From: Camelus ferus
Taxonomy: Eukaryota
Assembly (NCBI RefSeq): GCF_009834535.1
Contig: NC_045696.1
Coordinates: 20,338,001-20,402,000, forward strand
Direction: 5' to 3'
Length of the DNA stretch: 64,000 nucleotides
Every line of letters starts with the position of its first letter. Positions within the stretch are counted from its first letter, which is position 1. Made by a program: the position numbers and the translations under genes. The notes below the pieces were generated by a model that saw only the letters and a program-made list of their open reading frames with translations, was not told the origin of the DNA and ran no database searches. Below are positions 1 through 64,000 of this stretch, piece after piece.

Positions 1-629
1 ATTGCATGTTAAATACAAGTCCCCATTATTCTAACTGCATTCCTTACATTTTATGCTTAATACCCAGGAAAAAAAAAATATTAGGTATGCATAATTTGAC
101 AAGAGATTTAAGTTAAATCCAGAGATTTGAAATAAATACACATTTAGGAAATGGCATAGCTGATTCAATCCCAAATTTCTCAGCCTCCAAAACCAATGCT
201 GTGTTCATCTGTCTATATTAAGCATATTATTCTGTAATGTCATTCATTTTCTGGTATTTTCTTCTTTTTAGCTCTATCTTTCTCTTTATATAACTCTACC
301 TCTTCTCTGCAGGCATATTACTGGTATTTGAATTTGTATAAGTTAAAAAGCCTCAATATTTGACATAATTATTTGCCCAACTATTTAGCCATAATTAATA
401 TTTTGTAATTATTCATTGTTTCCTGGATCAGTCTGTTCTGCTATTCTCTCCTAATTTCCCCTCACATCACATCTGCCTTCACATATTCCCTAATCCCTTT
501 CACTAATTTTTAATATGGAACTGAATTTATTTTATAAAACAACTGTATTCTTTCTATAATTCATAAAGTAATATTTATTTCAAATCTAATGTAAGGACTT
601 AATTTGTTTTCTTAAGCATCTATGCAGTC

Positions 630-23120: not shown

Positions 23121-23212
23121 GTAGATATCCTGATGTACTCAACTGTGTAACCACCTGGGTCCGTGAAATAAGTGGATATTGCAGCAGGGAGGCTATAGCA
23201 ACGGGCTGAAAC

Positions 23213-24479: not shown

Positions 24480-24790
24480 TTCCTAGCAGATACAGTGGTG
24501 TCAGGACGAGGGCTAAAAATACAAGTGTTAGAAGCAGGGATAATTCCTAAGAAAGAAAATGTAACTATGTTTTTATACATTTATATTAGAATTTTAAGGA
24601 CCTGACAGAACAGGTTATGCGCTCAGCCTATATGGCAAAATTGGGGTTAACAACAAATGCAATTACATTGCCTAGTGGTAACAACAGCCCACCCGTTCTC
24701 TACCTCTGTAACCTTACCCTGTGTGAGTAGGGGTTAGACTAATATTGCTGCCTACAATCTAGACCATCACAGTGGCCAACCCCAAAGTCC
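24480..24790 (+). pseudogene. Possible dUTPase-like remnant of ERV-L
   Basis: Located after IN, where ERV-L encodes dUTPase; EAGIIP..E.VT and KLGLT.NA resemble it weakly. Confidence 0.35.
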
Positions 24791-25190
24791 TTCCAAAGAT
24801 GGAAACACTTGGGCATAAATGAGAAAAGAAGGAATAGTAGCCAAGGATAAAGAAATGAGTAAATGGGCTATGAAATAAGAGAAATCCAGTATTACATTAA
24901 CACTTGGAAAGAGGCTCAAAGCAAGAGATGACACTCTTAGCTCAATTAGATCAGAAGCCTGAAAGGGTGAAGCCATATACTGCTGCGACTACTCCTGTTT
25001 TTGAAACCTAAGGTCAAATGAAAACCCATAAACTTGAATGCCTCACCCTGGGAGACATTTTCATGTGACAGGATGGTGGAATGGACTAATTGTGAATGAC
25101 TGAATGGGACTCTAGTTAAGTACCAGCATCTTTTAACTGTTAGGATCTTTTCTGCTATAAGGGATCCAAAGTCAAAGACAGGGAGTGGCC

Positions 25191-26537
25191 TACAGTATCA
25201 CAGAAAGGTATCTGGTCTTTGACCCAGTTCCCAGCACAGAACTCCTAAAACTCTTGGAATTTTTTTGAGTGATAAGGGTGATGGGAGGGCCTTTTATTCT
25301 AATGGGGGGACTCTTGGGCTCCTGGATGGCTCTAGCTTTAGGATGGGAGCTGGTCACGAGAAAGACCACGCCTTGATTAGAAGCCTGGAAATTTCAGCCC
25401 TACTACTCAACCTATGAGGAGAGGAGAGGGATTGGAGATGGATTTAACCACCAATGGCCAATGAAATCTTTATACAAATCCTTAAACAACAAGGTTTGGA
25501 GAGCTTGTGGATTAGTGAACACACGGATGTGCAGGGATGGTGGCATACCTGGAGAGGACACGGCAGATCAGTCCATCAATTCCCCTATAGCTAAACTTCT
25601 GCATCTCTTCCAATTTGGCTATTCTTGAGTTATATTGTTACTGGAGAGCAGGTTCTTGTCCCATCACAGAAAGAATTCAGAGAAGAGACACAGAAGTCAA
25701 GAAAGCAAAGTGAGGATTTATTAAGTGATAGTACTCTCTCAAGGGGAGAGTGGAGAGACTCAGGTGAGTAGCTGCGCTGAGCTTCTTTGTCAAGCTCCAT
25801 ACATGCGGTGTAAAAATGTAAATGGGCAGAATATTCATTGAAGAGAGAGGAGTTTCAGGTTGTGTCCTGACTTTCATCCCAGCTCCACCTTCTGGAGGGA
25901 AGGAGGGTTTTTTGTCCTTATTTAGTCTTGATCAGAAGTGTCATGGCATCAGTGTGTGATGGGTACTTCTAATCTGCAAGGCTAATTTTATATAATGAGG
26001 GCACAATGAGCAAAAGGTTACATTCGGACATTAGAGATTCCAGGCTTATCCCACCTTTCTTTATCTGCCTCTAGGACACCTGCCAAACCAAAATATGTGG
26101 TTTCTTACCAGTCCAGATGTTCCTACTTTTCTTTGTCTGCCAAGGACCCCCGGTTGTTTGCAAGATGTATGGTTTCCTGACATTTGGCCCATGCCTCCTC
26201 TTCTCTGCTCATATCTAGCTACTGACAGATCTAACAGCATCCTTTAAAATAAATCAGCAAATGCAAGTCAAGTGTTTTCCTGGGTTCTGTGAGCCTTTCT
26301 AGCAAATTATCACATCTAAGGAGGGGTTTGGGGGGTACCTCCTGCAGGTCAGAAGTAAGGATGGCCCAGGGCTTGTTACTGGTGTCTGAAGTGTTGAACT
26401 TGAGCCTAAAGAGGCTGTGGAATCTGATGCTAAGTCAAAGTAGATAGTGTCAGAATTGAATTGAACTATTGGAGACTCTGTTGGTGTATCAGAGAATCTG
26501 AGAGTGGTTGGTATGGAGGGGAAAAAAAAAAACTTCA
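25191..26537 (+). mobile_element. 3' LTR (MER21-like), interrupted
   Basis: Follows the purine tract 'aaagacagggagtgg'; collinear with the 5' LTR on both sides of the insertion at 25636-26236. Confidence 0.85.
25636..26236 (-). mobile_element. ERV1 solo LTR nested in the 3' LTR
   Basis: TGTTA...TAACA termini; TSD atat/gcat, where the 5' LTR has gtat at the empty site; AATAAA on the minus strand ~25717. Confidence 0.85.
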
Positions 26538-27789
26538 ATAGTATAAAATCAAGGATTCAGTCTCTGTTAAATTTGGACAGTTTATAGCTTTTCTTTTTCC
26601 ATTTACAAGTACATCATTAATCCTGGTCCATTACATGAGTCCTGCTGGTCATAAGAGGGACTGAATAAAGAAAAGTATTAAAAATTGTTAAAAGCTATTC
26701 TCACCACTGAGAAAAAGAACTTTAAATACCAGCTCACTGGTAATGGGCTGGTAGTTCCAAATTAGCATATGAAGGACAGCATATTATTTTCACCTTTCAA
26801 GTACTTGAGACTATTATCATATCTTTAGACAACCGATGCTTAACTAAACAATACACTTCAGTTCCTGCAATTTTTTTTTATAACTTGGTGAATTGATTTC
26901 ATTAATCATTTCTGCTCTTCTCAGAACTATCTCCAAATTCCTGGACTTATCTGAATATTGAGATAAATAAAGCAGAAAGAAACAAATCTGGTGTCATCCA
27001 AGTCACAAACTTCAGGTAACAGATTCATTCTTATCTTTGATTTAGGAAACCACAGCCTGTCCATCAGTGATGATCAGAAACTACATGGTTTTCAATTGCT
27101 GTGCAGCCCAGCTATTGGTAGGTATGGGGTGAAAAGTACCCTTTCCTGTGGGCTCAGCTCCAGCTTCAGGAAAATCCAAGCCCTCACCTTTCCATGACAC
27201 ATGGAAGAAGTCCTTGTCTCAGATCAATCCCAATATAGACAGTCTTGCTATTAGTAGCTTGAAACTTACTACACCAAATTCTCTTTATCTAACCTCAGGA
27301 AGTAGTCTCTAAGTCTCCTCTGTAATTCTATGGCTGGATCTCAATCTCTTGTAGTTGTACTTCTATTCTTAAACATCAAGTTGTTTTTTTTCCCCCACAA
27401 AACAGTCATAACCTGCAGAACTATTAAGTACCAGATATTGTAGTGCCTGATGTACCTAGGTAACTTCATTTAGCACTCAGAGCAAAATATGGTGTAGCTA
27501 ATATTTCCCACTTCTTCTGGAGAAGTTAAATTAACAACTGTGATAATAACTACAGTTAAGTAACAAATGGTCAACAGGATCTCATCTAGATTGACTCTGT
27601 TCTTTCTTCTTTACTATCCTGCAGCTCTCACTCCATGGTCCACGTCCCAGTGTGTTCTTTGACAACGCTCATCTAGTTCTTTACTTCACGTGGTCATTTC
27701 CTGGTAGACAACAGAACCCTCAAAAATTTCATGAGCCTGCCCATAACTGAAACCACGGATGTATAACCCTTCTGTGTCTCTGGATTGTT

Positions 27790-27956
27790 AGGTTTTCCCC
27801 CCTGGTAACCATAAGTTTATATCCTACATCTGTGAGTCTGTTTCTACTTCGTACATAAGCTCATTTGTGTCATTTTTTTTGGATTCCACATATAAGTGAT
27901 ATCATATGGTATTTTTCTCTTTCTGGCTTGCTTCACTTAGTATGACAATCTCCAGG
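27790..27956 (-). mobile_element. Young cetartiodactyl/camelid-type L1 3' UTR fragment
   Basis: 'ccctggtaaccataagttt...tgtgagtctgtttct...gattccacatataagtgatatcatatggtattt'. Confidence 0.85.
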
Positions 27957-30900
27957 TAATCTGGGTTTTGACTGGCATTGTATTGAATCTGTAGACTATT
28001 TTGGAAAGTACTGCCATTTTAAGACTTATTAAGTAGTCTAATTCATGAATATTAGGTTTCTTTCTGATAATTTAATATGCTTTAATTTATTTAAAAATTT
28101 ATTTTAAAATTTCATTTCCAGACTCTTCATTGTTAATGTGTAGAAGTACAATTGAATTTTGTAATTTGATCTTGTATCCTGCAAACTTGTTAAACTCATT
28201 TATTAGTTCTAATCATGGATTATAACAGATGCCTTAGAAATCTGAATATAGAAGGTCATGTTATTTATAGTCACAAATATGATTTTGGATTTCTTTCCAA
28301 TTCATATGCCTCTTATTTCTTTTTATTGCCTAATTTCACTGCCTAGAAACTCTAGTCCAATGTTCAGTATAAGTGGCAAGAGTGGTTATCTTTGTCTTGT
28401 TCCTGATCTTAGAGGAAACCATTCAGTTTTTACCAATAAGAATAATTTAACTGTGGTATCTTATAGATGACCTTAACTATACAAGTTCCTTATTATTCCT
28501 AATATGTTCAGTGTTTATACTATGAAAAACCGTTGGGTTTTGTAAATTGCTTTTTCTGCTTGCATTGAGATGATTATGTGTGTCCTTTATTCCATAAATA
28601 TCATATAACATGGTTTTTTGGATGTTAAACCAACTTTATACTCTAAGGATAAATCTCACTTGTTCAAGTTGTATAATATTTTTTATATTTTGTTAAAGAT
28701 TTTTATCTCATAAGGGATATGTCTTCTGATATTTTTGTCTAGTTTTGGTTTCAGGATAATATTGGCCTCAAATAATAAGTTAGAAGTGTTTCATCTTCTA
28801 ACGTTTAGAAGATTTTGTGAATATTAATATTAGTTATTCTGTAAATATTTGGTGGAAATCAATAGGAAAGCTACGTGGGCCTTAGCTTTTCTTAGTAGGA
28901 AATTTAAAAATTATTAATCACTTGTTATAAAGCTACTAGTATTTTGAAATTCTTTTTGAATAAGTTTAACAACTAGTCTAGGATTTTGTTCATATCTTAA
29001 GTTATCTAATTTCTTGACACATAGTAGTTCATAGTATCTCTTACATTCTTTTATTTCTGTAAGGTCTATAGTTATGTGAACTCTTTCATTACTGATTTTA
29101 GTAATTTGAGTCTTTTTTTTCTTGATCATTATATATGCTTTTAAAGAAATTTTTTGCTCTTTTAAAAAAAAACTTTTGATTTCATTGTAACTGTCATTTT
29201 TCTATATTTTATTCCATTTATTTCCACAATAATGTTTATTAATTCTTTCCTTCTGCTTGTTTTGAGTTTAGTTTGGTTTCTTCTTTCTCTGATTTCCTAA
29301 TTAAAGTGAAAGATTTGGATATTTACTTGGTATCTTTTTTGTTTGTTTAAACAGTTGTTGGCAGCTGTAAGTTTCCTTCTTAACATTTATCATCTGTAAC
29401 CCACCAGCTTGTTATGTCATGGGTTTGTGTTATTTACACTGCAGTACTTTCAATTTTCCAAATGTATTATTTGACTCATTATTTACTGTGGAATGTGTTG
29501 TTTATTTTTAACTTATATAATCATATATGTTTAAAGAAGGTAAGAGAATTAGTATATATTTAAACCATTTATTATACTAATATACTTATTTACCATATCT
29601 ATTTTTTCATTTCTTTATGTAGATTTTTCTCATCTGGTATCATTTTCTTATCTATATAACTTTGTTTTCAGCTGCCTCTGTTGTGCTCTCATTGTCAAAT
29701 ATGTTATATTTCTAAATTGTATAAGCTCAAGAATACAATTATATATCTTTCTTGTGCAATTGTTTTTTAAATATATCAAGAGAAAAATGGAGGAGTGCAT
29801 AATTATAATGTATTTTTTAAATCACCTACAAAATTTCCTTTACTGGAGCTTTTTTCTTTTTTAAAAATATGAATTTGGTTTACTCTCATGTCAAGCTGAA
29901 GAACTTCCCTAGTATTTGTGATAGAGAAGATCTGATAGTAACAAATATTTTAAGCTGCTGTTTATGTAGGAATATTATTATTTCACCTTTTATTGAAAGA
30001 TATTTTCCTGACTAAAATATTTTTGGCAGACTTTTTTTTTTTCCTGTATCACTTTGAATATGTCATTCTGCTACCTTGTGCAGTTCATTGTTTCCTATGA
30101 GAAGTCAGCTGTTAATCATACTGGGATCTCTTTGTTGTGATGAATCATTTTCTATTCCTGCTTTCAAGATTTTTTCTTTGTCACTGATTTTCAACAATTT
30201 GACTATGATATGTCTGAGTGTGGACCTTTTTATATGAACACATATAATGTGTTGAGATTTTTGGATTTGTAGATAGATATTTTTCATCAGATTTGGGAAA
30301 ATTTTTGGCCATTATGTCCTTGAATATTTTTCATATCGCCTTCTCTCTTACCAAACCTATATCCCCACTATGCACATATTGCTGTACTTTTTCACATTTC
30401 TCCCAGGCACTGTTTATTTTCATTCTTTATTTTTTCCTGTTCATCATATTGCAAGACCTTTATTAATCTATCTTTAATGTTGCTGATTCTTTTTTCCTGC
30501 CAGCTCAAATTTACTGTTGAGACCCTCAAGTAAATGTTTTATTTTATTAACTGTAATTTTCAACTCCAGAGTTTCAATTTGGTTCCTATTTATAATGTCT
30601 CTCTCTTTACTGATACTCCTTATTTGATGAGACATTCTTCAGATGTATCTACCTTCAGGTCTTTGAACATATTTTATAGTGGTCACTTTGAAACCTTTGT
30701 CTGACAAGTCCAACATCTAGGCTTCATCAAAAACTGTTTCTATTATCTTTTTTCTTTTTTTCTTTCTATTTATGAGCCATACTTTCCTCTCTTTGTATGT
30801 ATTAATTTTTTATTGACCCCCCCCAGGGGGTGTTTGTTATAGTGTTGTTGTTGCTTCCTTGGTCATGTGTTTAGTAACTTGGCTAAACTACCTCTGTAGA

Positions 30901-32450
30901 GTCTATTCTTCTCATAATATGTAGCATCTAATGACTTTAATCAGATTTTTTTTTTCTTGTCTTTATCTTTTAGTGTTGTGGTCTTTTAGGTACCTAGTGG
31001 TCACACCTGGGTCATGTAAGCCACTTGCTGGTCAAAGATTGTGCTTAAATATCCTTAGCCAGTTAGACTTTTATCCTTAACACATTTTATTATTAGATAT
31101 GTGTCTGGCATAGAGGGTGTTATCACAGTTTAAGGACATATGATCTTGTCCCATGTTCATCTTGCAACTAATCATTTAGATTTTTCCTCTCTGATCATTC
31201 CTAAGAGGTCACAGCCTAAGTAAGGCATGCACATAGTCTTTTACTCTTCCAGGAATGGGTGCAATTTTGTTTCTAATCCTGGCTGTCTAAGATGTGCCAC
31301 TGAGTCAGAGGAACTTCTTGTTCAGCCAGTGATTTGTCAGAATTGTGCTTAAGTCTCTTGTGCCAGTGAGGCTTCTTCCCTTTTTAGATGGATCTTAGTG
31401 TAACATGGAGAATGTTTTCAAATCTACCGCATATCCAGCTCTGATTGCTTCTGATCTGGTGCAGCCTAGCATTGCACACAACACTCCTGATCCCCGTGTT
31501 GCCTGTTACACCAGTGAAGGCTCTTCAACACTGTCTCCTCCCTGGGTTCTGTTAAATTTCTGGTGCTTCTTCACGTTACTTGTTGCTATTAGTATCACGG
31601 TGCTTTCAGTGCGTTCTTAATTGCTTCCCTCTAAGGTCTTTGTGGGTTTTGACAGCGAATTGAATGGAGTTCTTTGAGCTTTGTTACCAATAAAGTCAGT
31701 CCCTTTAGGCACAGTTGTAGAACTCTAAATAATTATGGCTTGCCTCTATCCTACTCAGTATCTTTGCAGGTCTACTGAGGAGCTGGTGGTGAGCCAATGG
31801 CCCACTACACTTAGAGTGACACCCCAGTTCAATGAACTGGCACTGGTGGCAGTTGGTAACTCTTAGTTGTCTTGGTTTGCCTTTCCCTGCATGTAAACTC
31901 TGCCCTCTGAGCAAGCTGGAGCTGAGACAATTGTATGCAATGTTTTTGACCCATCATATCTAGAATGGATCTCGCATGCTACAGTTAGGGCCTGAGTAGG
32001 GGTAGGGAGCTTCCATCTTCTCCGTTCTGTTTTTGAATAGAGCTTCTACAAAATAGGACTAGTGTGATGACAAATGGCAGCTACCTATCTCTTCTGAGGT
32101 GAAACTCAAGCCTTCAAATGAAGCTGGAGTAAGGAGCCCCATCTTAATGTCTATACCCACCCGGGGTAGAGCATAAGAGTAGAGTTTCCATATATGGAAC
32201 TGTGAGGTGGGAAACAGAGTAGGTCATGGCTTAAATGCTACATTCTCAAGCTATTCTTATTGAGATTTAGACTTTGATGAACACGTGTTTTTCCATTTGC
32301 TTTATGCCCTTAAGACAATTTCCAGAGACTTTAAATGATGGAGGGGTTTTGTTTGTTTGTGTCTTATAATTTTCTCCAGTTAACAGGTTGTTTTGTTGGG
32401 GGTAGAGTTTACTGCATTACTCACTCTTTCATTCCCAGATTACCACTTCC
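27957..32450 (-). mobile_element. Old L1M element: 5' region, ORF1 and partial ORF2
   Basis: ORF 30105-30287 (RSTLRHIIVKLLKISDKEKILKA) is L1 ORF1p-like; ORF 28914-29129 (KTQITKISNER.ITIDLTEIK..YYE.L..KKLDNL) is ORF2p-like; degraded, with deletions. Confidence 0.85.
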
Positions 32451-33149
32451 ATAATCATAATTCCTTGCACTGATTTCATATTGCTAAAATTTTAAAACAT
32501 ACTGACATTTATTTCTTGTTTAAATCGTATATTGAACTGACTTAAAGAAACTGTCAAAAAAAATGATGGTGACATATTATTAAATACACAAGAATTTTCC
32601 TGCCAAAAATTAAGTAAATGTAAAACATCATTTAAAAGTAAATATTTGAATACACATTTCATACAGCTTTATGTTTTCATTAGGGCTCTTTTGAAATAGC
32701 TTAATGTCTCAGATCTCTTTTTTCATTTTTGCCCTAGTGAAATATATAATTATCCAATTCTATTGAAAAAAGATGCTTAAATATTTTTTCCTGAAATCAT
32801 TGTGAAAAGTCAAGAATTGTAAGGGTTGCAACAGAGGGTCACATCAAGAATTTTTTTAAAATAGTGTTTATGTCAGTAGTAATCACCAAAATGGGTGCGA
32901 TTAAAAACTAAACCAACCACCACTGTTAAGTAGGTAATGGCTACTTTTATGTGACTATTATATAACATACTTGAAGAAAATTCCCTATGTACATTAAGTA
33001 TCTGCACATTATTTGGGGTCCAGATCAAATGTGGGGCTTTTTGTCACTCTGTACTCTTTTTCCCTTTTCATCATAGGTCTCTAAATTTCTTGCTGAATGA
33101 CAGAGTCAAAGAACTTAAAAAAAAAAAAAAAAAGCCATATCATCTGATT

Positions 33150-33250
33150 TAACTGCTTTATTTTATAAATATGAAAAACTATATTCTAGAGAGGAAAAAT
33201 TAAAGGTCATACATCTTTTAATGCAAGTCTGGAACTTGAATTCCCTTACC
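33150..33250 (-). mobile_element. MIR fragment
   Basis: 'attttataaatatgaaaaact...aaggtcatac...ctggaacttgaattc'. Confidence 0.5.
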
Positions 33251-35794
33251 CCTTCCCAATGCATAATTCACTCTGGATGCTGCTTCTCCCAAAAAATAGC
33301 AGAAGGTGATGGGAAATGAACTCAAGCCACAGAATCAAAACAGCACCTTCTTCACTTATTTCCCTCTCCAGCTGCTGTTTCAGATCTGAAATGGAGTTAA
33401 GACTGCAGAATGGGTTCTGTCTATGTTGGACACTGTTTTCGCTCACATTTTCTGAAAATCCCATATACTTCTGGAAGATTATTTTTCTTTAACTTTTTTT
33501 AAAGGGGAGAGGGGTAGTAGGGAGACTTTCCTAGTACTTTTGCAATTCTGAATAAGAACTACAGGCAATAAAAGAAGAAACAAGTGTTCATAGTTGAAGG
33601 ATCTCTCCCAAAGGTCACAAGATTAAGTTAAAAAAAAAAAAAAACAAAAAAACAAAAACAGAAAGGGGTAAGGTTTACTGAGGACAAATTGCTTTAAAAA
33701 TTGGGGATGTGTGAGATTTTTACCTTAAAAGTATATCTTTCTCACAAGTTAAAATTTCTTTCCATGATTAGAAAAAAAGTATACATTTAATGTAGAGAAT
33801 TACTTTTGATCAGTGTTTCTAGTTTATGTAGTGCAATTCAAATATTTAAAATAATATTCATGTTCTACATCATTTAAACATATTTATGTCAACAAATAAC
33901 TCATACACAGATTACCTCTGACAATGGTGTATATCATTCACTGAAAATTTAATCTGTTTTGGTAGTTTTTTTAAAGAGAAAAAAATAAATAATCTTTAAA
34001 CAATTTCCAGTGTGCTTTTGGGGCCTGTCTTAATATGAAATTGTGTGATGCTTGTTCCTTTCCTAAAATCTCAGTGGGAATCCTCAGTCATTCACTGCAG
34101 TGATTAGATCTTAGTTTTGTGGCAGGTTGAAACACTTTAAATCAGGATAGAGGAGGTGAAGAAAGCTCTGTTAGCTAAACAGATACCTTGTGTATGGCAA
34201 GACACTCTTCTGTTTATGGACTTCAGAGAGAATTCTTTGTACATTATACAAGCCCACATGGTGAAGAACAAAGATGGGATTTCAAAGACTGACATCTTTT
34301 GTGATAGAAGAAAAAGCATTTTTTCTTTCCAGTTGAATATTTCTAAGAAAGATTAATAGGTAGAGAAAAAAATCATCTTCAGAAAAGATCAGAGCTTGAG
34401 CTATGCTGTTTGTGCTTCATGGTTTTATACATCCCCTCAGTGAGAGTGGGCTGTGCATGGAGAAGGTTTTTTTTTCCCCAAAAAACTATCCATTGCATAA
34501 AATTAATTGACAAACACAGCCATATCTGACAGTGAAATCTGCAGTTTAGTGGGGTGGGCACATATACTGTATGTACTCTACTTTGTAAAAATATTCCCCA
34601 GCTGCTTTCCTTTGGCTGATAAGGACACATCTTCCTCTTCTGCTATCATTCTCTTTTACTCTTTCCCTGAGTCATTACTATACCCTCAAATACACATTTT
34701 CAAGCACTTCTGAAGGATTATGTTCACAGTGCGCCCCGTCTCAACATGATTTCTTGCAGCTTCTACAATCAGACCCACCTTCCTTCTTACCATCCACTTT
34801 GCTTCCTTTGCCTGTGAAGGCTTTAAATATTCTAAGTCATCTCAGACTGTGTAATCTATTAAAAATCAAGCTTCTCCTGACAATTTCTGTAACAATAATG
34901 TTCTATTTTCTGCCCTTTTAATATAATTACCAGCATGAATTATCTCACGCCTGACATTTGGACCTGTATAATATACGCCTGTCAGGATTGGACTTTAAAA
35001 TATATATTCACAGTAGAGTTTAACCTACTGTAAAGTAGGTTCCTTAGCATTGTCACTGCATCTTACTTTATACATACTATTCATAAATAATCATGAAGAG
35101 CACTTCTGTAGCCAAGGACAAGTGACAGGTTTTAGGAAGAACTTAGTTGAGTAAATAGTGTTGTGGATATATTATAAAATCAGTGTATCTACTTTTATTT
35201 ATTTATTTTTGGCAAATAGAATTCTAGGAATTCTAGGAAGTTCTAAGAAACGTCATATACAGTCCTAAATATGTTTCAATCAGTGAACTAAGAAATCTCC
35301 CTGATTCTTATTTGTGAAAAACATTTAGAGTTAGAAATAATTTCATTATTAAGATGTATATAGCAGCCTCCTTGCTAAAAGAAAATAAAGCAAAAAAAAT
35401 GAACTAGACATACAAAACTAAAAACACACACATCTACAAAAGTAATGTGGCCAGATTATATGAAGAGTAGCGCACCAGATCTTAAGAGAGAGGTGCTAAA
35501 AGTGGAACCACATGTCTCAGGCTCCATTATCTCCCCTTCCTTAAATGGATGCAATTATTTTCACAGGGGACATCGTCATTTCCCATTCTTCTTGGTGATG
35601 GGCAGTTGTCTCAGCAGCAGAAGGCATTTAAACCAAAAAGAGGAAAAAAACAATCTGAAAACAAATCAGTATAATAAATGAAATATATAAAATGCTAGGC
35701 TAAAGGATCCAGGAAGAGATTTGTAAAATAAGAAACAGAGGCCCAGAAAAAAATAAAAGGACAAATTTTCAAGCTCATAGATTTTTATGTATGC

Positions 35795-38885: not shown

Positions 38886-38991
38886 ACCTGTTTTGAGCGT
38901 CACTGGCCTATAATTCTCTTTCTCTGCTATTCTCAAATACCTGTTTTGAGCGTCACTGGCCTATAATTCTCTTTCTCTGCTATTCTCAAAT
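38886..38991. repeat. Perfect 53-bp tandem duplication
   Basis: acctgttttgagcgtcactggcctataattctctttctctgctattctcaaat x2. Confidence 0.95.
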
Positions 38992-39725: not shown

Positions 39726-39839
39726 TCTTTTGATTGGAATGCTTAAACTACCTTGGTCTAATAGGACTTAAATGTGAACTCCACATGTAACTTTAAAATG
39801 TACTAATGGTCACAATAAAAAAAGTAAAAATAAATAATA

Positions 39840-40810
39840 CTCAAGGCAATCTACAGATTCAATGCAATCCCTACCAATAAACCAATGGAATTTTTCACAG
39901 AAGTAGAACAAATAATTCTGAAATTTGCATGGAAACACAAAAGAGACTGAATAGCCAAAGCAATCTTGAGGAAACAGAGCTGGAGGCATCATGGTCCCTG
40001 ACTTAAGACTATACTACAAAGCTACAGTAATCAAAACAGTATGGTATTGGCACAAAAACAGATACATAGATCAATGGAGCAGAATAGAGAGCCCAGAGAT
40101 AATCCCACACATTAATAGTCAATTAATCTATGACAAAGAAGGCAAGAACATACAATGGAGAAAAGACAGTCTCTTTGATAAGTTATGCTAAAAAAAAACT
40201 GGATAACTACATGTAAAAAGAATAAAATTAGAACATTTTTTCACACCATATACAAAAATAAACTCAAAATGGATTAAAGAACTAAATGTAAGACTGGAAA
40301 CCACAAAATTCCTAGAAGAAAACATAAACAGAACACTCTTCAACATAAATGGTAGCAATATTTTTTTGGATCTGTCTCCTGAGGCAAAAGGAACAAAAAC
40401 AAAAATAAATAAATAGAATCTAATTATATTTAAAAGCTTTTGCAGAGAAAAGGAAATCCCAGACAAAATGAAAAGACAGGCTACTAAAATGTGAAAAAAT
40501 ACTTGCAAATGACAGGTTCAATAAGGATTAATATCTTAAACATATAAACAGTACACACAACTCAATATCAAAAAAAAACCCTAAACAACCCAACTGAAAA
40601 ACTAATAGAAGATGTGAATAGACATTTTTCCAAAGAAGACATACAAATGGCCAACAGGCACAAAAAAGATGCTCAACACTGCTAATCATCAGAGAAATGC
40701 AAATCAAAATCACAGTATCATCCCACACCTGTTAGAATGACCATTACCAAAGACAAAAAGTAAGTATCGCTTAGGAGAAAAGGGAATCTGTGCACTCTTG
40801 GTGGGACTGC
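39840..40810 (+). mobile_element. Younger L1 ORF2 C-terminal fragment, no 3' UTR
   Basis: ORF 39991-40191 [34 protein letters not shown] is canonical L1 ORF2p; frameshifted. Confidence 0.95.
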
Positions 40811-48649: not shown

Positions 48650-48860
48650 TATATTATTACTTGCTCTGCCACTCTATTCCATGTGACACTCTTGTTCCCT
48701 GATATTGGAACAAATCAGTTCAACTCACTGACCCTCAGTTTCCTTATCATTAAAGTGGAATTATAATATATAGGACTGAACATAATATATAGGACTGAAT
48801 ACGTGAGAGACTCTAGCACATGTTTGACACACAGTAGATCCTTGGTTAATAATTACTTAG
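48650..48860 (+). mobile_element. MIR with an internal 19-bp-period duplication
   Basis: 'cctcagtttccttatcattaaagtgga'; ataatatataggactgaa x2 at 48763-48799. Confidence 0.7.
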
Positions 48861-52225: not shown

Positions 52226-54919
52226 TGCCTTTACAATCCTTAAGTAAACAGACAATGAGGACACGTCAGTTCTGCAGTACCACCGACGTGATTCTAAGGA
52301 CAGAGTATCTCTGTTACAGCCTATCTGTCTGTCACCTATTCATAGGGAAGCTCCATTTATCCTATTTTAACTATTAAACCTTGCCTTTTCCAATTCTCTC
52401 TCTTTCTCTTTCTCTCTGAATGTCTCTGTCTGTTTCCCTCCCTCCTCCCTTCCCTCTTGGTATGTAGTAGTTATTGAAATTTTTTCTTGTTATAAAAAAA
52501 CCCAAAACACTAAAATGCATGTTTTATCTAAATCTAGATAATGTGCAAATGGAAGCAGAAATATGATACTTATAAAAATATACTGGTATATAAATAAACA
52601 TTTAATTGTGTGGTAACAAAATGACTCTTCAACTAGATTCATTCTTCACCTTTTTTTTTTAAGTTATCCAATTAATATAAATTGTTTTCAAAAGTGAATA
52701 AAATAAAATCAAGACTTTGGAATGGCATACTTATGCTCAAATTTTAAGTAAATGGTACTTTAATTAGGAAACTATAAACCTAATAAGGTATTAAAAAAAG
52801 TCAACTTCCCAATTTCTTAGAGCTTTGGTTGTCCTGAATGCTCTGGCCTTAATCTGTATTTACCTGTCCAGCCTCTGAAAACTTCTACATACCTAGTCTA
52901 GCATGAGGACTTACATTTATGTATTTATGTATTGTTAATACAGCTTAAACCAAGATATCTTATTATTTTATTCTTCATATGATGACATGAAGCATTTTAT
53001 TCCCTGAATTGACTATGTAAATTCAAACTTCAAATAAAGTCTCCCTAAATCTTAAATCACTAAGTAGAGTTTGCTCAGTGGTATTATTTTTCCAGCATTT
53101 GACTATTAATATTCCTTGGCAAATAAACCTCATTAGAGTTGATCTTTTCCTTTTGAAATGTGGAGGTCTGGAACAAAATATAAAGTCACACAGAAATGCA
53201 GTTTCTATAAACCCATAATGGATTAGAATTGTGTAGAATTTCAAAACTTAAAATGCTCATAAATGTTGAATCTACTTTTAAACCTCTCTCTTTTTCTCAG
53301 ATAAAAAAATAACCTACCTCTCTCCCTCTTTCCACCTAATAAAAAAAATCTATGGAAAAGATAATCAGTATTATAAACCAAAGGACAACGCCTCCAGAGT
53401 GTTCAGTTTTTGTCTCTTCACTACTCTATCAAGAGACATGATTTAGGATAGAGTGTAGTTTTGTATTTTGCATTTTTTTTAAAAAAAAGCAAAGCCCTAT
53501 AAAATCAAAACAAATAGTATTGGTTACTTCAATTGAAGAGTCAATCACCTAGATTAAATGACATATGGAATGACACATAAGAGTCATTCTGCATCAAAAT
53601 GAAAATGTTTCTCCAGCTGCTGAAGTGGATCTTAAGCCACTGAGGGTTTTGCACATTTAATAAATTGCTCTGCTTGAGCAATCCTGTCAAAAAGGACAGG
53701 AATATCAGACTGCACTATACAAGCTCCCTGATTAATAGAAGTCCCCATATGATGGAGTAAGTTACAACCTTAATGTACAAATAATGAACCTCTATTAAAA
53801 CGAAGGGTATCATAAATCAAAATGCTGTAGAAAAACCATAAACCTGTGGCAACATAATGGCCACCAGGGCCCAAACTGTATTAATCTTGTAGGGTGCAGT
53901 ATCATTTCTCTAAGAGAGACAACTAAACATATCCTGTGTGAGAGTGAATTATGAGTGTGATAAAGGTTCTGGACTATTCATTTAAGTTAATGGCAAAGTT
54001 CATATTGAGATACCCCATGGTTAACTCCTCCTCTCAATCTGCCTTGAACTCTGTTTCGACTAAGACAAACATCAATGTGTTCATCAACGTTCTAAGCCTT
54101 GCATTTGTCTGAAATGTCCTTGGAAAGAAAGTGAGGGAAAAAAGAAGAAACAAATGATCTCTCCTTCAAAATATTTTTAGTTTCTTTTCCCTTCAGTTAG
54201 TATATCTAATTTTATTTAAACCTTCCTTATATATATATTTCTACTCATAGTTACACACACTATCTCATAGCATTTTAGAACTATATATAGCATTGAAATT
54301 TATATCTTTTGATATGTTTCCTGCATATTTTCCTATTACCAATTGAATATTGGAAATAAACCTTCCATATGAATTAAATTCGAAAGAGCAAAGAAAATAC
54401 TTAACACAAAATGTCTTAGTGTAGCATTTGTTTGGGAAATGTTTTCATTTACATTTTAATGTAACAGAAGAAATATTTCATTAGTATACCCTGATACGTT
54501 CTGATTTGTAACTATCTTCTATGGATAGAACAGTTTCTTGTAGGGTGAAAAATCCAAGCTGATTGTTTACATATTTCGTACTTGTTAAAAAGTATTTGCA
54601 CATAGTCTTATTCTATAAGAAACTGCTCCTGATATGATCATTACCGAGAGCAAGATCCAATAGTTTGTTGTTTCTAGAGGTATATATATATGTTCTTACT
54701 CATAGAAGGCACTTATTTTCATTATTTTACTGTGTATTTGTCTATAATGAATTTAAACTTAGTTCTGGAACCTCACGAATTTTTTTCTATTGGATATGTT
54801 GTTATCAATTCAAATATATCTCAGTCATTTCTAGATTTTTTCCCCTACGTATCCTTTGCTAACTCAGTCAATTCAGGATGCCACCTCTTTCTCCTTCCCT
54901 TTTGTACCATGGTGACCTA

Positions 54920-55014
54920 CTTTTCTAGGCTCATGCTTGTTGGTATTTATTCACCCCAAATCCTATATGTCTATTTGGGGTGAATAAATACCAACAAGCA
55001 TGAGCCTAGAAAAG
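54920..55014. repeat. Perfect 42-bp inverted repeat with an 11-nt spacer
   Basis: 54920-54961 cttttctaggctcatgcttgttggtatttattcaccccaaat is the exact reverse complement of 54973-55014. Confidence 0.97.
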
Positions 55015-55309
55015 CATGGAATCCCAGAGGGACTGAGTTGTTAATAATGTCTGCTTAATATCTATGATGTCATTTCCACCATCATTCCAGGATATTAACT
55101 TGGAATGGAAGTCACAACCTGACTCTTCAAATCTGAATTCTGAAGTTACTATAAAATCCCCAGTCCCTAGGGTGGGGCCGAGGTAGTGAGCACTTGTGAG
55201 GGAACTCTTATTTTCGTGCTTGGCTTTGTGACACAGGAAGCAATGAAGTGGTACACAGTTCAATCTAAATCTACCATAAATGAATCAGCAATCTCTAATC
55301 TAATATAAA

Positions 55310-56720
55310 CAAATAAGTAGGATAACCCCATATAATGATAAAAACAAAGAAGAAGATGTAATATGGTCATGCAAAATAAGAAAGTGACTGGGTGAATCCT
55401 CTGTCTAGGATCATAAGCAGTCCACCCTGAAGACATGACATTTGAAATGGCACATAAATTAAAAGAAGAGTGTCAGGCATGTGAACATTTGAGAGAAGAC
55501 TTTCAAATTGGAAATAAAAGCACCAAAATTACAAATAAACAAACTAAAAATGTCCTGGAAGAGAAAACTACTCTGTATTTTTGAGGGACAGAAAGTCACT
55601 AGGCATTGTATATTAGGGGAAAGTACAGATATATGTAGCCATAAAAGATTACAAAAGCCACATTCGTGAGCCCTTATGAGGAATTTGAAACTTATGTCTT
55701 AAAAACTTTACTGCGGTTGCTCTGTGGAAACATGACTGGAGGAGAACAAGAGTGGATTAGAGATAGTAGTTTGGAGTCTCGATTTGGAGTTTTCTATAGA
55801 AGTGATCATAGCTTAGACAGGATTACAGCCCCAGAGAGAACAGTAACTACTAAATATAGAGGTATTTAGGCCTAAGCATATCACAAAAATTATGTTCAAG
55901 GTATGAATCATGAAATAATTTACTTAAGTGGAGAAGACAAAAAAAAAAAAATTTGTTCTATGTGGAGGAAATCGAAGGGTTTGGTTTTGACCATGTTAAC
56001 ATAGCGATGATCGCCATGCTGTCTTGAAGCAGGTGCTTGAAACTATATACAAATAAGAGGGTGACTGAATCAATGGATAAGATGCCTATAAAAACCCAAC
56101 TGGGGAGACTATGTCTCTATTTGTGTATTTTATATACACACATGTTTATGAATATATGTTTATATACATAACAATATGTTATATGCATAACAATATGTGT
56201 TCATATCAATATGTATGTGTGTGTGTGGGTGTGTGTAATTCCCAGGAAACTATTATGGGTAGGCTGAGACTAGAAATATAGTTTTAGAGGTATCACATAA
56301 AAGATCATTGAGAATACAACCCTGGGGCATATCAAAATTTAGAATTATAATAGGTAAAGAGGTACCGTAAGAATGCTGAGAAAAAGCAGACCTCAAAGTA
56401 GGAGAAAGACCAAGAGACTGTGGCATAATGGAGTGTTATCCTACAACAAAATTAGATCAAAAGATCAGATATCTAGATATATTTAGATGTTCAATTAAAA
56501 AGCTATTTAATCCTTATAGGTCTCTGTGCCAGTCCCTAAGACAGAGAGAATAAAAAGATGGACAGGATAGGGCCACTGGACTGAGACACTTACTCTAGTA
56601 CGTAAATTATAAGACAATGTGTTACACGTCACAATTTTAGTAATAATCTTTTCTGAACTAATTTTCGGAAGAGAATGTGTGAAATTGAGCATCTTTCAAA
56701 CATCTAAAATGAAGAGTACA
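55310..56720 (-). mobile_element. Degenerate L2 with an internal TA/TG low-complexity tract
   Basis: L2-like phrases such as 'ctgaagacatgacatttgaa', 'gggtttggttttgaccatgttaa' and 'ggctgagactagaaatatag'. Confidence 0.55.
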
Positions 56721-57366: not shown

Positions 57367-58329
57367 ATATATATATGCCATTATATAAAACTTGAAGACA
57401 TTTTAAATGACAATGTTAATATATACATTTTTCTATAAAATGATGGTGATGAAATAAGATGTTTCTATACAGAAGTGGATGCCATTTGTCAGGCAAACAG
57501 GCTGAGTTTCTGTGGAGCACTCATCTACCATTCAAGAATGATGAAAGCCACAAAGAGCCCAACAGATTCTATTTGTTTCTTGAACCACTGACAGTGGCTT
57601 TCTGCCAGAAAACAATGACTCTGCTCAAACCTAAACAACTGCAAATTCTCAATCATTACAGTGCTTAAAAAAGTTCATTTAATTTAGAATATTTCATGAA
57701 AAAATTGTAATTACATTTGTCACTGAAAACCATGTTAAAATATTGTCTCAACATTTTAGGTAATACTCCCACACATGTAGTCAATATTTAAATATACAGG
57801 TGAAGTAAAAGACTATTCTTCTTGTTTATCAAAAGCTCTGATAGATCTTGTTTAACAAAACCCCTATTAAACACCATCACTACAGTTAATGGATTTTGTC
57901 CAATTAATACATAGTGACTCAACGTATAGATGCATAACTTTTTATCTAACTATTCTCCCATGGTATATTTAGATTGTTTCTGATATTGCTGTTACTTAAA
58001 AATATGTTTAAACTCTTTTAGAATACTCAGATGAGCTTGCAAAAATTAGAAATGCTCCTGTATTTTCCTCACCTTTTTTTTGCTTCCTTAATTACATTTT
58101 CCTCTATTATTCCAAAGTCAATGTCAATCTGCTGAATTATTCCACGTTACCTTACAGTTGTGCATTAGTGCTTCAGTGACAAGAGAAACCAGCAGGCTTA
58201 ATTCCAGATCAGTGTAATTTCTGTTGCCCTCACGTTGAATGTTGTATTTAATTTATAGTTTCCCTTTAGGAGACGTACCATTTGTAGATAAACAATTTGT
58301 AGACAAGACAAAGCTACATCATTTGAGGG

Positions 58330-58985: not shown

Positions 58986-59543
58986 TGAGAGACTGGATAT
59001 ACAAACAGACAATGGCCAGAGCATACATAAAAAGATAGAACTCGGACTCACAAACTGCAGCAAGCAGCCCAGGAACCCAATGCATCATTTAGAGTAACCA
59101 TCCCAGGAAGCCAACCTACTATCTACAAGTCAAACTTGTACAGAGTCAGACCACTCATTCTCTCTGGCAAACATTCCAGGAAGCCAAATAACCACCCCTG
59201 TAACAGTCAGCCTAAAATGACCAGAACTTGATTAATAACTCTCAGCTTCCCCAGTTTCTGTCCCTGATTCCAGCACAGGACCAACCAGAGAAAGTCAAAT
59301 ATAAACATCTAACCAATCACACCAGAAGCCCTGCTTCCAGTTAGCCTACCTGCGGCTTCCCTGTGCTAGGAGGTTCCAGTCAGGACATTCCTAAAGCCTC
59401 CCCCTTTTTCGCACTATAAAACTTTCCTATCCTCCTGCCTGCCTTTGAGCTTCTGCCAAAGTACAAGTTAGTGGTGACTAACAGTGAGCTCTAAAAAAAA
59501 ATAGCCTTTGCCTTTTCTCATTTGGTTGGTCTTTATTTCCACA
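58986..59543 (+). mobile_element. ERV1 solo LTR (MER89-like)
   Basis: TG...CA termini; repeated 'ccaggaagcca' units, CCAAT, TATAAA ~59415; TSD aaag/aagg. Confidence 0.75.
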
Positions 59544-61759
59544 AAGGAAAAAAAAAGGTAAAATCATTCATGATTTTTAATATGACCCAACCTAAACAAT
59601 GCAAATACAGAATTAATGGATGCCATTTGTCAGGCAAATAGGCTGAGTTCCTGTAGTATAAATAAAAACAAAGTCTGCCCCCAAGTATATACTTTAACCT
59701 CACCAATTTTCTTACCCAAACTGGCACCATCCAGTAGCTCTATTGCCTTCCTGAACACCTACCGGCATGACTTGGTTATTTCAACACATCCCTATTTATA
59801 GAAAGGACCTAACAAGAGTGACATATTAAAATTGAAATGTAACATGCCTCTTTATAACAGCTTTATGATTTTTTTCCTGCATTTTTCAAATCAATGAGTA
59901 TATATGGATGTTAAGTCAGAAATAAATGTTACCTCAAACATTTCTTTCTACAAAGTTCACATAGAAGACACATATCTAAACTGAATAGTTATTCAGTGAA
60001 GTGAATGATGACTAAATCAGGACTCTTGGAAATTGACTGAGTACTGGGGAAGGTCTTACAGAAGATAATAAAAAAAAAAAAAATTAAAGGGACCAAGGTG
60101 AATTTGCTTAATGTCATTAAGCCTCTCAACAGACAGCAACGAACAATCAAATCCAGATTATACGTTAAAAAATGTTAAAAAAAGTAACCTGAAGCAAAGC
60201 GAAAAAATAATCTGCTTATCTCTTTGCTACTTCCTCTAATAAAATTTTCAAATTATAAATTACTAGAAACAGATTCCACAACTTAAACAATTATAAATTG
60301 TTATCCAATCATTTGGGATACAAAAAATATATATATACAAGAAGGACAACAAAAGAAACATTAATACCATATGTTTAGCACAAATTACACTCTTGGTATT
60401 GTGCAAGGTTCTTGCACATCTGCTCTGCTTGACTATTTAGAAACATGTTATACAGAACTTGGTTTGACTATGACCTCATGCTACGTCCCAAATTCTGTTC
60501 AATAGTCACTTGAACAGAACAATTCAGAAGCTATTCCAGTTAAGAGTACTAACCTACAGTACCAAACCATAAATTTTTCTAGAATTCACTGTTGAAAAAA
60601 TGTCCTTATGTATAAAGACAGCACAGATTGCTCTAGAATATATGCATGTTTAATGCAGGAAGAAAAAAATCCACAAATTTAAGTCTTTCTGTTTTTGTAA
60701 GTCTTCACCAAAGATGTGAAATTTTCAAGTAAGATGTAGGTAATTAGGTAATAAATGCTATTCAGAGTTACTAACATGCTTAGTCTAAATGACTGATGCT
60801 TAATATAGTTGAGAAGGAAGGAGCATGAAAATACATATTGATATTTAATTTAGGTCACTGTGCTGTACAGTAACAAGGAAAAACAAGGATGATCAAAGGG
60901 GAAAAAATAAATCAACACTGCACTTCCATTTCAAAAGCGGTAACTGTTGAAATACATTCACACATTATAAATGTCATTAGACCTTTCCAGGTAATTGCAG
61001 TATGACATTAAATCGAATAGTTCAATTTTAGATCTTGTTTATTTTTGCAGATGTGATATATTTTATGCAAAGCAAAGTAAACTTTTTATATTAAATCATG
61101 TAATTGATTTTTGAATACTGTACATAACTAGCAATAGAAGACATTGTGGGGTCTCTATTTTTCATTATAATTCATATTGAAATGTAATTTCGTTAAGTAG
61201 CATACAATGTAATTTAAATCACAATTAAATAAGCAAGTTAGTATGTTTCCCAGTGCTTGAAATATCTTGCAACAAAACCATCTTGAAAAATTTTTATATT
61301 TTGATCTCCAGAATCCGTACAGCATATTTCAAGAAGAAAAGTTTTTAGTTTTATACAAAAAAATCAAATTAAAAAAAATAAAAGTACTCAAAATGTAAAA
61401 AACCCCAGAAAGGTAAACTTTAACTGGAGAAAAAAAAGAAATAAAAAAAAACCATTTCAGTTATGAGGGATAATAAATAAATTATTACATAATAATGGAT
61501 TATCTAGCAATACCATAGTTTTAATTGATTCAGCACCTCATCTTTTCTAGCCAATTTACACTAATTTCTTTACCACAGAAACAAGAACTCTATTACTGAG
61601 CCTTCATTCTGATTGTTAGTATCCCTCTTGCCTTTTGCGTGGTGACCACTGTTTCATATGTAGCCTTACCAAACCACACGCGCACAGAAACACAGGTGAG
61701 AAAACACGGCTATTTACAAGATTAAGCAAAAACAGTATACTTAGGGTAACTTTTAACTA

Positions 61760-62070
61760 GAACATTTACTGTCGTAAATGCTGTAATACATGAAATGTGA
61801 AATTCTTCTAGTGACAGCCTAGAGAATCAGACAGTACTTAAATTGGATGTCATGTCAATGTATAAAAATTGTTCCTGTCAAGCATGCTATTGAAAGTGAC
61901 ATCATCACAACCCTCTATGTGTCTTTGATTGATGGCGTAGCCAAATAAATGTAATAAAGAACAATGCAACACTTGATGCCTAGTAACCTATTATCAACCT
62001 GCTTTAACATTTTGGGTTTTCAACCTTACTTCCCTGGTGGTTTTTAGAGTTCAAAAGGAAAGTGACAGAC
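61760..62070. promoter_or_regulatory. Candidate developmental enhancer (PBX-HOX/MEIS/SOX/TCF motif cluster)
   Basis: TGATTGATGG 61926, TGACAG 61812 and 62063, CTGTCA 61875, GTCGTAAA 61771, AACAATG 61960, in repeat-poor sequence. Motif evidence only. Confidence 0.4.
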
Positions 62071-64000
62071 TACTATTTCACTATTTTTTCCTTTAAGTAT
62101 ATAAATGCCATACAAAGTAAATCTGAGACGTTCTTAATCACACTCATTTGCCAACATTAATCTAACAATTAAATTTTCTTAGACTACACAACTAAACACA
62201 GAAAAATTTTACTTTTTATTATAATTTTGAAACATGTCATGCAATGTTTCACCAAAATATTGTACTTAAATACCTTATATTTTTCTTCAGTAACTTCATC
62301 TCCAATAGCATTCAGCAATGCAAATCCAGTATGTTTTACAAAATTTTATCCAATTTTATTGTGACAATGTAATTAGATTCTAGAAAATACTATAATTCTG
62401 TTTTCACTAGAGTGATTACTGACACAAATTAAACAAGAATATTCAGAAATCAATGAAATTAATATTGAAATGACCTTGATAGCAGCTTGCGTCATCCTCC
62501 CTCAGCTTACCCTTTGTGATAATATTTGCTCTTTGAATTAGGACAAATGAAATTATGTTTATGAAAGCATTTGATATCCTTTAAGCTCAAAGTTGTCATG
62601 CAAATAAAATATTTTATTTTCATTACTATGCACATTTCATGTGTATAGAACTCAAATGAAAGCCAGTAAAGGTTTTGTGCCTAGGAAATCTGTTCAGTCA
62701 AAATTTATTTTTATTAATCATTGCAGAATGGAAACTGTCATAACGTGTCAAAAGATTGTAGATTTTGATTTGTGTGTTCCTGCCTGTATGTATGCCTGTA
62801 ATTATATTAAAATATCTACTGAAAATGCCCACTTGAAAAGAACATCTGCTTTTAATGACAAGTTGACAAATTTGTCAAATTAAAGTATTTTAAATAATCC
62901 ATATTTTACATTAACAAAAGAAACTTTCTTCAAAAGGAAAGAACAAATAAAAATCTGAAATTCCATTTTAAAGCAATATATTTTCTATAATCCAGACTTA
63001 CTTTTGTATGTTTCTTTATTCCAAAAGATTTTGTTCAAACATATTGCAAGAATAATATTTTCTCCAAATAAACCCCCTGTTCTCTTTACTTTCAGCTGCC
63101 AATATGAATTTTCGTAATCAGGGTATAATATAGATGAAAAATAATCGAACTAGTTTTCAAAACAAGAGGTTTTTTTTTTTTTTTTAAGTCACATTAACTC
63201 ACATCATTTTATCCAAATACTTTTAACCTCCTAAGTACTGATAAGCTGTTAAGAATTTATCCTCTCTCCAGTATCCTGATTCTTATGTAGAACAAATTTG
63301 GTTAAGAACAACCTCTTTTTGAGGTTATTATTTGAAAGAACCATGTATAGTCCTGCAAACTAGATCCCCATTCACAGATTTAACTCAACAAGAGTTCTTA
63401 GTACAATACTTTTAGTAACCAGGCTGCCATCATGTTTAGTCACAAAAATTCTTTATAATAATTTTTATACATCTATATAATTTACAAAGTTTTCTACATG
63501 ACCAGATGATAAAATTAGTATGAAAATCCTTTGGTAAGAATACACTACTAACTATTTAAAAGGCGTCAAGAATGTCTCCCTTCCTCCCATGCCTTCCAAC
63601 AATATTGCACAAATGACTTTACTTGTCCTAAGAAGTTTGTAGAGTCACGGATGAGAGGAAGCACGGATGTGGAAATCAAATGAGATATTTTATGTAAAAA
63701 TTCTTTTAAAGTTAAGATCTACTGAAATGTAAGAAGTTAATGTTGCAACATATAAGTATATAAACCAAACCAAAGAATCCACACTCACTCCATACATGTT
63801 GCTCAGCTGTCTTTCACCATCATTTTTGTTCTCCTTCCTGTTTCAGAAATGAGGGACTAACAAATACAGAGAGAAGGACAGAGAACTAAGTGGGGAAACA
63901 GTTTAAGATATCATTTGCTTCTTAATGTTTCTCCAGTTCCACAGTATTAGCATTAAAGGAGATGTCTCAGCAATCTTCATGGAGAGAAACTAATTAAAAC

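What the first reader, a model, noticed from the sequence alone, without database searches (positions are those of the whole stretch)
54920..55014. Perfect 42-bp inverted repeat (95-nt hairpin) in unique sequence
Seen: two 42-nt arms pair without mismatch around an 11-nt spacer (cctatatgtct). Flanking ccatg/catgg could extend the stem past an 8-nt bulge. The arms are complex sequence, and I do not recognise them as a known MITE (not MADE1 or MER-type ends) or a known miRNA. Inference: zero mismatches among heavily decayed repeats points to a recent fold-back/template-switch duplication or ongoing arm-to-arm conversion. The size fits a pre-miRNA or endo-siRNA hairpin, or a cruciform-forming fragile site. 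It could be a lineage-specific hairpin RNA in the making.
Basis: partly seen in the sequence, partly recalled or inferred. Interest (0 to 1): 0.7.

Follow-up and report, generated by a model that had tools for sequence, protein, structure and literature searches.

The report
Young copy-error hairpin in camel DNA
The perfect 42-base-pair hairpin is really in the sequence, but it most likely comes from a single DNA-copying slip of a kind already well described in mammals, and nothing shows that it is expressed or does anything.

Summary
Confirmed: 54920-54961 and 54973-55014 pair 42 of 42 around an 11-nt loop. The next-best non-microsatellite arm in the window is 13 bp; shuffles reach 10-13.

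The best reading is one short-range template switch during replication (type 3-2-1-4 or its mirror), which copied about 38-42 neighbouring bases backwards. Zero mismatches put the last time the arms were identical within about 7-18 My, so ongoing conversion is not needed. This is a known class: 6,054 such 30-55-nt stems arose in human genic regions, and 0.9% are in miRBase (PMC10710096).

Not a known RNA family: 0 of 14 Rfam hits reach gathering score. Not MITE-like: no flush target-site duplication and no other copy in the window. As a pri-miRNA the stem (42-44 bp) exceeds the 33-39 optimum. The minus strand does carry basal UG and CNNC in register (chance 1-6%). RNA runs hold the region only at genomic-background level.

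Open: no reads or orthologue could be laid on the hairpin, so the ancestral state, an assembly artefact (about 6%) and small-RNA output are untested. Ordinary; low interest.

The parts
54920..54961 (+). Left arm, 42 nt, complex sequence
54962..54972 (.). 11-nt spacer (loop)
54973..55014 (+). Right arm, exact reverse complement of the left arm. Which arm is the new copy is unknown.
54907..54912 (.). 6-bp palindrome in the left flank; its first 5 nt pair with 55015-55019 past an 8-nt bulge, and its last 5 nt repeat there directly. Possible junction microhomology; chance 3-5%.
55012..55018 (+). 7-mer across the right junction that also occurs inside the right arm at 54996-55002; possible return-point microhomology; chance about 2%
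55015..55016 (-). Basal UG on the minus strand; with 54918-54919 it adds a G-U and a U-A pair, giving a 44-bp RNA stem
54911..54914 (-). CNNC on the minus strand, +16 from the 3' cut that the basal UG would set
54930..55002 (-). Hypothetical 73-nt pre-miRNA if Drosha cut in that register (30-bp upper stem). A prediction only; no reads.

Best explanation
A neutral scar of one short-range template-switch mutation in non-coding camel DNA. During replication the nascent strand left its template near the present loop, either folding back or jumping to the opposite strand. It copied about 38-42 adjacent bases in reverse-complement orientation and then returned to the original template (four-point type 3-2-1-4, or 1-4-3-2 if the left arm is the new one). 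The arms are still identical because the event is young, probably under 7-18 My. It can form a hairpin in single-stranded DNA or RNA but has no shown function. Shown: the perfect repeat, its excess over chance, no flush target-site duplication, no second copy in the window, no Rfam family. Inferred: the mechanism, the age, neutrality. Unknown: which arm is new and what the ancestral allele was.
For: Geometry is what the model produces: a perfect inverted copy of adjacent complex sequence, a short spacer and dissimilar flanks. PMC5453318 (parts 1-3 of 6): types 1-4-3-2/3-2-1-4 make an inverted repeat and are 31% of 794 high-confidence human-chimp events. PMC7954356 (passage): copied fragment median 12, maximum 128 nt, so 38-42 is in the upper tail but in range. 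PMC10710096 (parts 1-4 of 6): 6,054 new 30-55-nt stems in human genic regions, 57 of them (0.9%) annotated as miRNA; no pre-existing similarity required. Outer flanks as a decayed older repeat: 4-13% of random pairs score as well. Rough estimate with assumed times and length fractions: 3-180 perfect arms of this size per 2-Gb genome, one per 170-10,000 windows. Short repeats at the right junction fit microhomology-guided return.
Against: The defining test, an ancestral allele lacking one arm, was not done: no genome, no look-alike stretch in the scan index (0 windows), no reads laid. Most template-switch fragments are far shorter (mean 11.56 bp, bioRxiv 10.1101/2021.11.26.470150, passage). Two 2-5% coincidences at the right junction may point to an older quasi-palindrome or a two-step event. 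The minus-strand UG plus CNNC register (1-6%) is not predicted by a neutral origin.
Confidence: 0.68

Rival explanations
1. An older imperfect palindrome, possibly the remnant of an ancient small DNA transposon, whose arms were recently made identical by template switching (classical quasi-palindrome correction).
For: Pairing extends imperfectly outside the perfect core: 5 bp past an 8-nt bulge, and a 23-column alignment of the 30-nt outer flanks reached by 4% of random pairs. Left flank ends TA and right begins CA, one transition from a TA target-site duplication. Template switching can repair existing stems (PMC8794818, abstract).
Against: The outer similarity is not significant at 40 or 60 nt (13% and 9% of random pairs). 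No flush target-site duplication of 2 nt or more. The arm has no relative in the window (best other hit E 0.14). The ends do not resemble the mammalian MITE ends I recall (recalled; no Dfam search possible).
Confidence: 0.13
2. A templated inverted insertion made during double-strand-break repair (microhomology-mediated break-induced replication or end joining with snap-back synthesis) and not at an intact fork. Same product, different trigger.
For: Short microhomologies at the right junction. PMC8755829 (abstract) argues for such repair behind some human-chimp microinversions. Snap-back synthesis in end joining is recalled, not read here.
Against: Nothing in the sequence requires a break. PMC8755829 concerns inverted spacers, not new arms. 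The two routes cannot be told apart from one sequence.
Confidence: 0.08
3. A fold-back artefact of library preparation or assembly; the animal has only one arm.
For: No run holds all sampled words: 14 of 24 listed runs hold 0.99, i.e. 2-4 of 279 words missing. Loss of one arm would remove 56 of 2,659 distinct 31-mers, 5.9 sampled words expected, and 2-4 missing has probability 0.27.
Against: The same 0.99 is more probable from one SNP or indel (0.63) or from contig builders dropping the loop words of a real hairpin (0.51). The sequence resumes in unique DNA after the second arm, whereas fold-back chimeras usually end there (general knowledge). In human data, short-read genotyping found the alternative allele at 95.5% of 883 template-switch loci (bioRxiv 10.1101/2021.11.26.470150, passage).
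Confidence: 0.06
4. A template-switch-born hairpin that is transcribed on the minus strand and cut by Microprocessor into a camel-specific proto-miRNA.
For: Minus strand: 11-nt loop, basal UG at -14/-13 and CNNC at +16 in one register; chance 1.2%, 3.6% or 5.8% for 1, 3 or 5 allowed registers on either strand. Template switches did found at least 18 MirGeneDB miRNAs in primates (PMC10710096). The 59.5-64 kb stretch looks repeat-poor by eye and has candidate minus-strand poly(A) signals, so read-through is possible (inference).
Against: Stem of 42-44 bp against an optimum of 33-39; adding CNNC to the 44-nt MIR579 stem gave no gain (PMC5340965 sections 5 and 8). No apical UGU/GUG in any register. 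The motif match was found after the fact. The four larger RNA or possibly-RNA runs hold 0.36-0.65 of the words, and their contigs amount to 0.44-0.47 of a genome, so there is no enrichment. Base rate 0.9% even in genic regions.
Confidence: 0.04
5. A young copy of an undescribed, recently active MITE with 42-bp terminal inverted repeats.
For: Size (95 nt) and long perfect terminal repeats are MITE-like.
Against: No flush target-site duplication; camelid MITE families have 2, 3, 8 or 10 bp ones (PMC8605555, passage). No second copy in 64 kb. Arms last identical 40 My ago would be mismatch-free with probability at most 0.0012.
Confidence: 0.01

Closest known systems
Short-range template-switch mutations, four-point model, type 3-2-1-4 / 1-4-3-2 (Loytynoja and Goldman 2017, PMC5453318; Walker et al. 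2021, PMC7954356)
   Same: Perfect inverted copy of adjacent complex sequence, short spacer, dissimilar flanks; length within the reported range (maximum 128 nt).
   Different: Those cases were called against an ancestral allele, which is missing here. The species is a camel, not an ape. The copied fragment is in the upper tail of lengths (median 12).
TSM-generated miRNA-size hairpins and de novo miRNAs (Monttinen, Frilander and Loytynoja 2023, PMC10710096)
   Same: Stem within their 30-55 nt class, central loop, no family relatives.
   Different: 89% of their TSM-associated miRNA loci are intragenic, mostly sense-intronic, and show read stacks. Here no host gene and no small-RNA reads are shown, and the stem has none of the later mismatches seen at 105 of 111 of their loci.
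Long-stem miRNA families in Rfam (mir-4504 RF03173, MIR6020 RF03351, mir-4773 RF03734)
   Same: A long, nearly perfect stem of similar size gives E-values of 1.7e-10 to 3e-7.
   Different: Scores of 46-54 bits are about half the gathering scores (100-118). The printed alignments (mir-4504, MIR6020) match by pairing and not by letters, and both strands score alike. Not members.
Short non-autonomous DNA transposons (MITEs) of mammals, e.g. the MADE type (recalled)
   Same: About 95 nt made almost wholly of terminal inverted repeats.
   Different: No flush target-site duplication, no second copy in the window, and zero arm divergence, which does not fit an old insertion.

Membership tests
Template-switch mutation (3-2-1-4 / 1-4-3-2) | A fragment that is an exact reverse complement of nearby sequence, 14-15 nt or longer, using all four bases | tested here: met
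   42 of 42, complex sequence
Template-switch mutation (3-2-1-4 / 1-4-3-2) | An ancestral or sister allele lacks the copy and four switch points explain the difference | not testable with these tools
   No genome, no look-alikes, no reads laid
Template-switch mutation (3-2-1-4 / 1-4-3-2) | No equally long hairpin existed beforehand | tested here: inconclusive
   Outer flanks pair no better than 4-13% of random pairs; the ancestor is unseen
Canonical pri-miRNA | Stem of 33-39 bp | tested here: not met
   42 bp (+), 44 bp (-); optimum from PMC5340965
Canonical pri-miRNA | Apical loop of 10 nt or more and stem pairing of 82% or more | tested here: met
   11-nt loop, 100% paired; thresholds
Canonical pri-miRNA | Basal UG, CNNC and apical UGU in register (supporting, not required) | tested here: inconclusive
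   Minus strand has UG and CNNC in one register, no UGU; plus strand has no CNNC. The -14/-13 and +21..23 positions are recalled; CNNC at about 17-18 nt is
Canonical pri-miRNA | Small-RNA reads from both arms with precise 5' ends and 2-nt overhangs | not testable with these tools
   Only contig-form runs were listed. One camel supplement with miRNA sequences gave 0 hits for four 12-nt motifs (a table of 40 differential miRNAs, very low power); another lists names only
Canonical pri-miRNA | Member of a curated family | tested here: not met
   0 of 14 Rfam matches reach gathering score; U6 is the only gathering-level match in the window
MITE / non-autonomous DNA transposon | Terminal inverted repeats | tested here: met
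MITE / non-autonomous DNA transposon | Target-site duplication flush with both ends | tested here: not met
   None of 2 nt or more at zero offset; the best is a 5-mer set back 7 nt on the left
MITE / non-autonomous DNA transposon | Many copies in the genome | tested here: inconclusive
   One copy in 64 kb; genome-wide count not possible; camelid MITE library not readable

The most novel reading that the evidence does not exclude
A miRNA gene caught at birth outside primates and rodents. One template switch made the stem just downstream of a minus-strand transcription unit (perhaps NCAM2, from recalled gene order) and by luck left basal UG and CNNC in register on that strand. Read-through RNA would be cut to a 73-nt pre-miRNA (54930-55002, minus) giving a camel-specific small RNA. 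If the allele still segregates, animals with and without it would allow a direct before-and-after test.
Probability: 0.04. Interest if true: 0.45.

Novelty: new member of a known kind. Interest (0 to 1): 0.17.

Why it matters
It matters little alone: thousands of such hairpins are documented in primates and very few become genes. It would be a camelid example of template switching; my one search for camel + inverted repeat + template switch + hairpin found 0 papers, which is a narrow search. It would matter more only if small-RNA data showed processing of a 44-bp stem, or if the allele proved polymorphic, since either would make the first step of de novo miRNA birth testable in a livestock species.

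Tried and rejected
Whole-genome copy count: no genome held. Word-share arithmetic: not decisive (0.27 against 0.51-0.63). RNA runs as evidence of expression: rejected, since shares track each run's fraction of a whole genome (ratios 0.81-1.38 for the four larger runs); X19 is a small unlaid share. Rfam miRNA hits: rejected as structure-only. A weak self-inverted match just right of the hairpin (55028-55168, BLAST E 0.46, nhmmer E 0.072): rejected, fold z -0.77, 36 of 200 shuffles as good. Plasmid and phage origin: no match at E 0.1 in either collection. Coding exons nearby: 0 of 117 ORFs of 40 aa or more hit Pfam at E 0.01 (117 of the window's 580, those reaching past 50,000 except any over one short stretch left out); short exons could be missed. 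The last 1.5 kb read in three minus frames showed no recognisable terminal exon, so NCAM2 is not confirmed. Using other old repeats in the window as stand-in ancestors: no significant match. Camel small-RNA tables: PMC12467276 supplement has 87 'novel' names without sequences and was cut when stored; PMC9933125 supplement 0 hits; PMC7275387 supplement listed, not searched. Literature searches: one search returned mostly Camellia; one search gave 5 papers; two searches gave 0; one search gave no count of perfect repeats of this size in its listing. Earlier scan notes: nothing near the locus and no look-alikes.

Full report
Observation. Bases 54920-54961 and 54973-55014 are exact reverse complements over 42 nt around an 11-nt spacer. 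Among 72 perfect inverted repeats in the window with arms of 9 or more and spacers up to 100, the next longest are a 17-bp microsatellite and a 13-bp AT-rich arm. Twenty local shuffles gave longest arms of 10-13 bp, and the chance expectation is about 5e-13 per 2 Gb. It folds far better than shuffles as RNA on either strand and as DNA (z -14.7, -14.1, -15.3; 0 of 200 each). The outer 5-bp pairing past an 8-nt bulge is present, but 2.9-5.0% of random flank pairs do as well.

Setting. The window is AT-rich, and by eye it is repeat-rich mammalian DNA (I did not display 24,001-33,999). Earlier scan notes on the same genome call it camel and place CCT8 7.5 Mb, SMIM34/KCNE 10.8 Mb and DSCAM 15.8 Mb before the window (AI notes, not checked). 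With recalled human gene order this suggests the NCAM2 neighbourhood. The stretch from about 59.5 to 64 kb could be a minus-strand 3' UTR, but I could not confirm it: the last 1.5 kb shows no recognisable exon, and 0 of 117 nearby ORFs hit Pfam (117 of 580 in the window). The only Rfam match at gathering level in the window is a decayed U6.

Is it in the animal? Of 24 runs listed for 53400-56100, 14 from six studies of organism A hold 0.99 of 279 sampled words; 3 of the 14 (X9, X10, X14, two studies) are not marked as a possible source. So the locus is real. The hairpin itself is not settled by this. A share of 0.99 means 2-4 words are missing. That outcome has probability 0.27 if one arm were absent, 0.51 if contig building drops only the loop words, and 0.63 for one unrelated SNP or indel. 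No reads were laid (one search gave no result) and no genome is held. I leave about 6% for an artefact.

What it is not. It is not a known RNA: 0 of 14 Rfam matches in 54600-55400 reach gathering score, and the best (mir-4504, 53.9 against 104) aligns by pairing alone and equally on both strands. It is not a young MITE on the tests available. There is no flush target-site duplication, whereas camelid MITE families have 2, 3, 8 or 10 bp ones (PMC8605555, passages; its supplements were not readable, and might hold a matching family). There is no second copy in the window. An insertion 40 My old would keep 42 of 42 with probability at most 0.0012. It has no match in plasmids or phages and no look-alike in the scan index (that index has only 20 windows of this genome).

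How it most likely arose. A perfect inverted copy of adjacent complex sequence with a short spacer and unlike flanks is the product of a type 3-2-1-4 or 1-4-3-2 template switch. These make up 31% of 794 high-confidence human-chimp events (PMC5453318, parts 1-3 of 6). Copied fragments have median 12 and maximum 128 nt in apes (PMC7954356, passage) and mean 11.56 bp among human haplotypes (bioRxiv 10.1101/2021.11.26.470150, passage), so this one is long but in range. In human genic regions 6,054 new stems of 30-55 nt arose since the primate ancestor, and 57 (0.9%) are in miRBase (PMC10710096, parts 1-4 of 6). Zero mismatches give a 95% upper bound of 3.6% divergence per arm. That is 7 My at the dromedary rate quoted in PMC8605555 and 14-18 My at slower assumed rates. 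Ongoing conversion is therefore not needed. A rough estimate, with assumed times and length fractions, gives 3-180 such perfect arms per genome, or one per 170-10,000 windows: striking in a window, ordinary in a genome.

What counts against this reading. The ancestral allele is unseen, so the mechanism and the polarity are inferred. Two small coincidences sit at the right junction: the 5-bp outer pairing (3-5%) and a 7-mer that recurs inside the right arm (2%). They may be return-point microhomology, or traces of an older quasi-palindrome that was later perfected, which template switching can do (PMC8794818, abstract). Break repair can give a like product (PMC8755829, abstract). I give these 0.13 and 0.08.

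The miRNA idea. On the plus strand no register has a CNNC. On the minus strand the stem grows to 44 bp, and a basal UG and a CNNC at +16 fall in one register, predicting a 73-nt precursor at 54930-55002. The chance of this on either strand is 1.2-5.8%, depending on the registers allowed (motif positions partly recalled). Against it, the optimum stem is 33-39 nt and a CNNC added to the 44-nt MIR579 stem gave no gain (PMC5340965, abstract and sections 5 and 8). There is no apical UGU/GUG. The four larger RNA or possibly-RNA runs hold 0.36-0.65 of the words while their contigs total 0.44-0.47 of a genome, which is background. One camel table with miRNA sequences gave 0 hits, with very low power (PMC9933125, passages and supplement search). 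Another lists names only (PMC12467276, passages and supplement search). I put a processed proto-miRNA at about 4%.

Verdict. A real, young, perfect inverted repeat that works like, and probably is, a template-switch mutation. Membership rests on one met feature and one untestable one. It is a new member of a known kind with no shown function. My search for a camel report of this found 0 papers; it was a single narrow query. Interest 0.17; most novel reading 0.04 probable, worth 0.45 if true.

Noticed in passing
window 38886-38991: Exact tandem duplication of a 53-nt complex unit, 100% identical; another young short-range copying event, or an assembly duplication.
   Followed up: no
window 57476-57513 and 59617-59654: 38-nt direct pair, 95% identical, 2,141 nt apart, with an LTR-like stretch (by eye) between them; possibly a young templated copy.
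   Followed up: no
window 17998-18107 (+): Decayed full-length U6 snRNA copy, 58.5 bits against gathering 44; most likely a retropseudogene.
   Followed up: no
window about 59500-64000: AT-rich stretch that looks repeat-poor by eye, with several candidate minus-strand poly(A) signals. May be the 3' UTR of a minus-strand gene beyond the window; offsets in earlier notes plus recalled human gene order suggest NCAM2. Not confirmed.
   Followed up: partly
window 54913-54934: A small imperfect hairpin (7 bp with one bulge, 6-nt loop) straddles the left end of the left arm (seen by eye); it may bear on where copying stopped. Not tested.
   Followed up: no
window 55028-55168: Weak self-inverted match with 12-13 nt imperfect ends just right of the hairpin; not more stable than shuffles.
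   Followed up: yes
window 48763-48799: 19-nt tandem repeat, 1.9 copies, 100% matches.
   Followed up: no
window about 18900-25000 and 39800-40800: Decayed LTR/ERV-like and L1-like fragments recognised by eye (family labels recalled).
   Followed up: no
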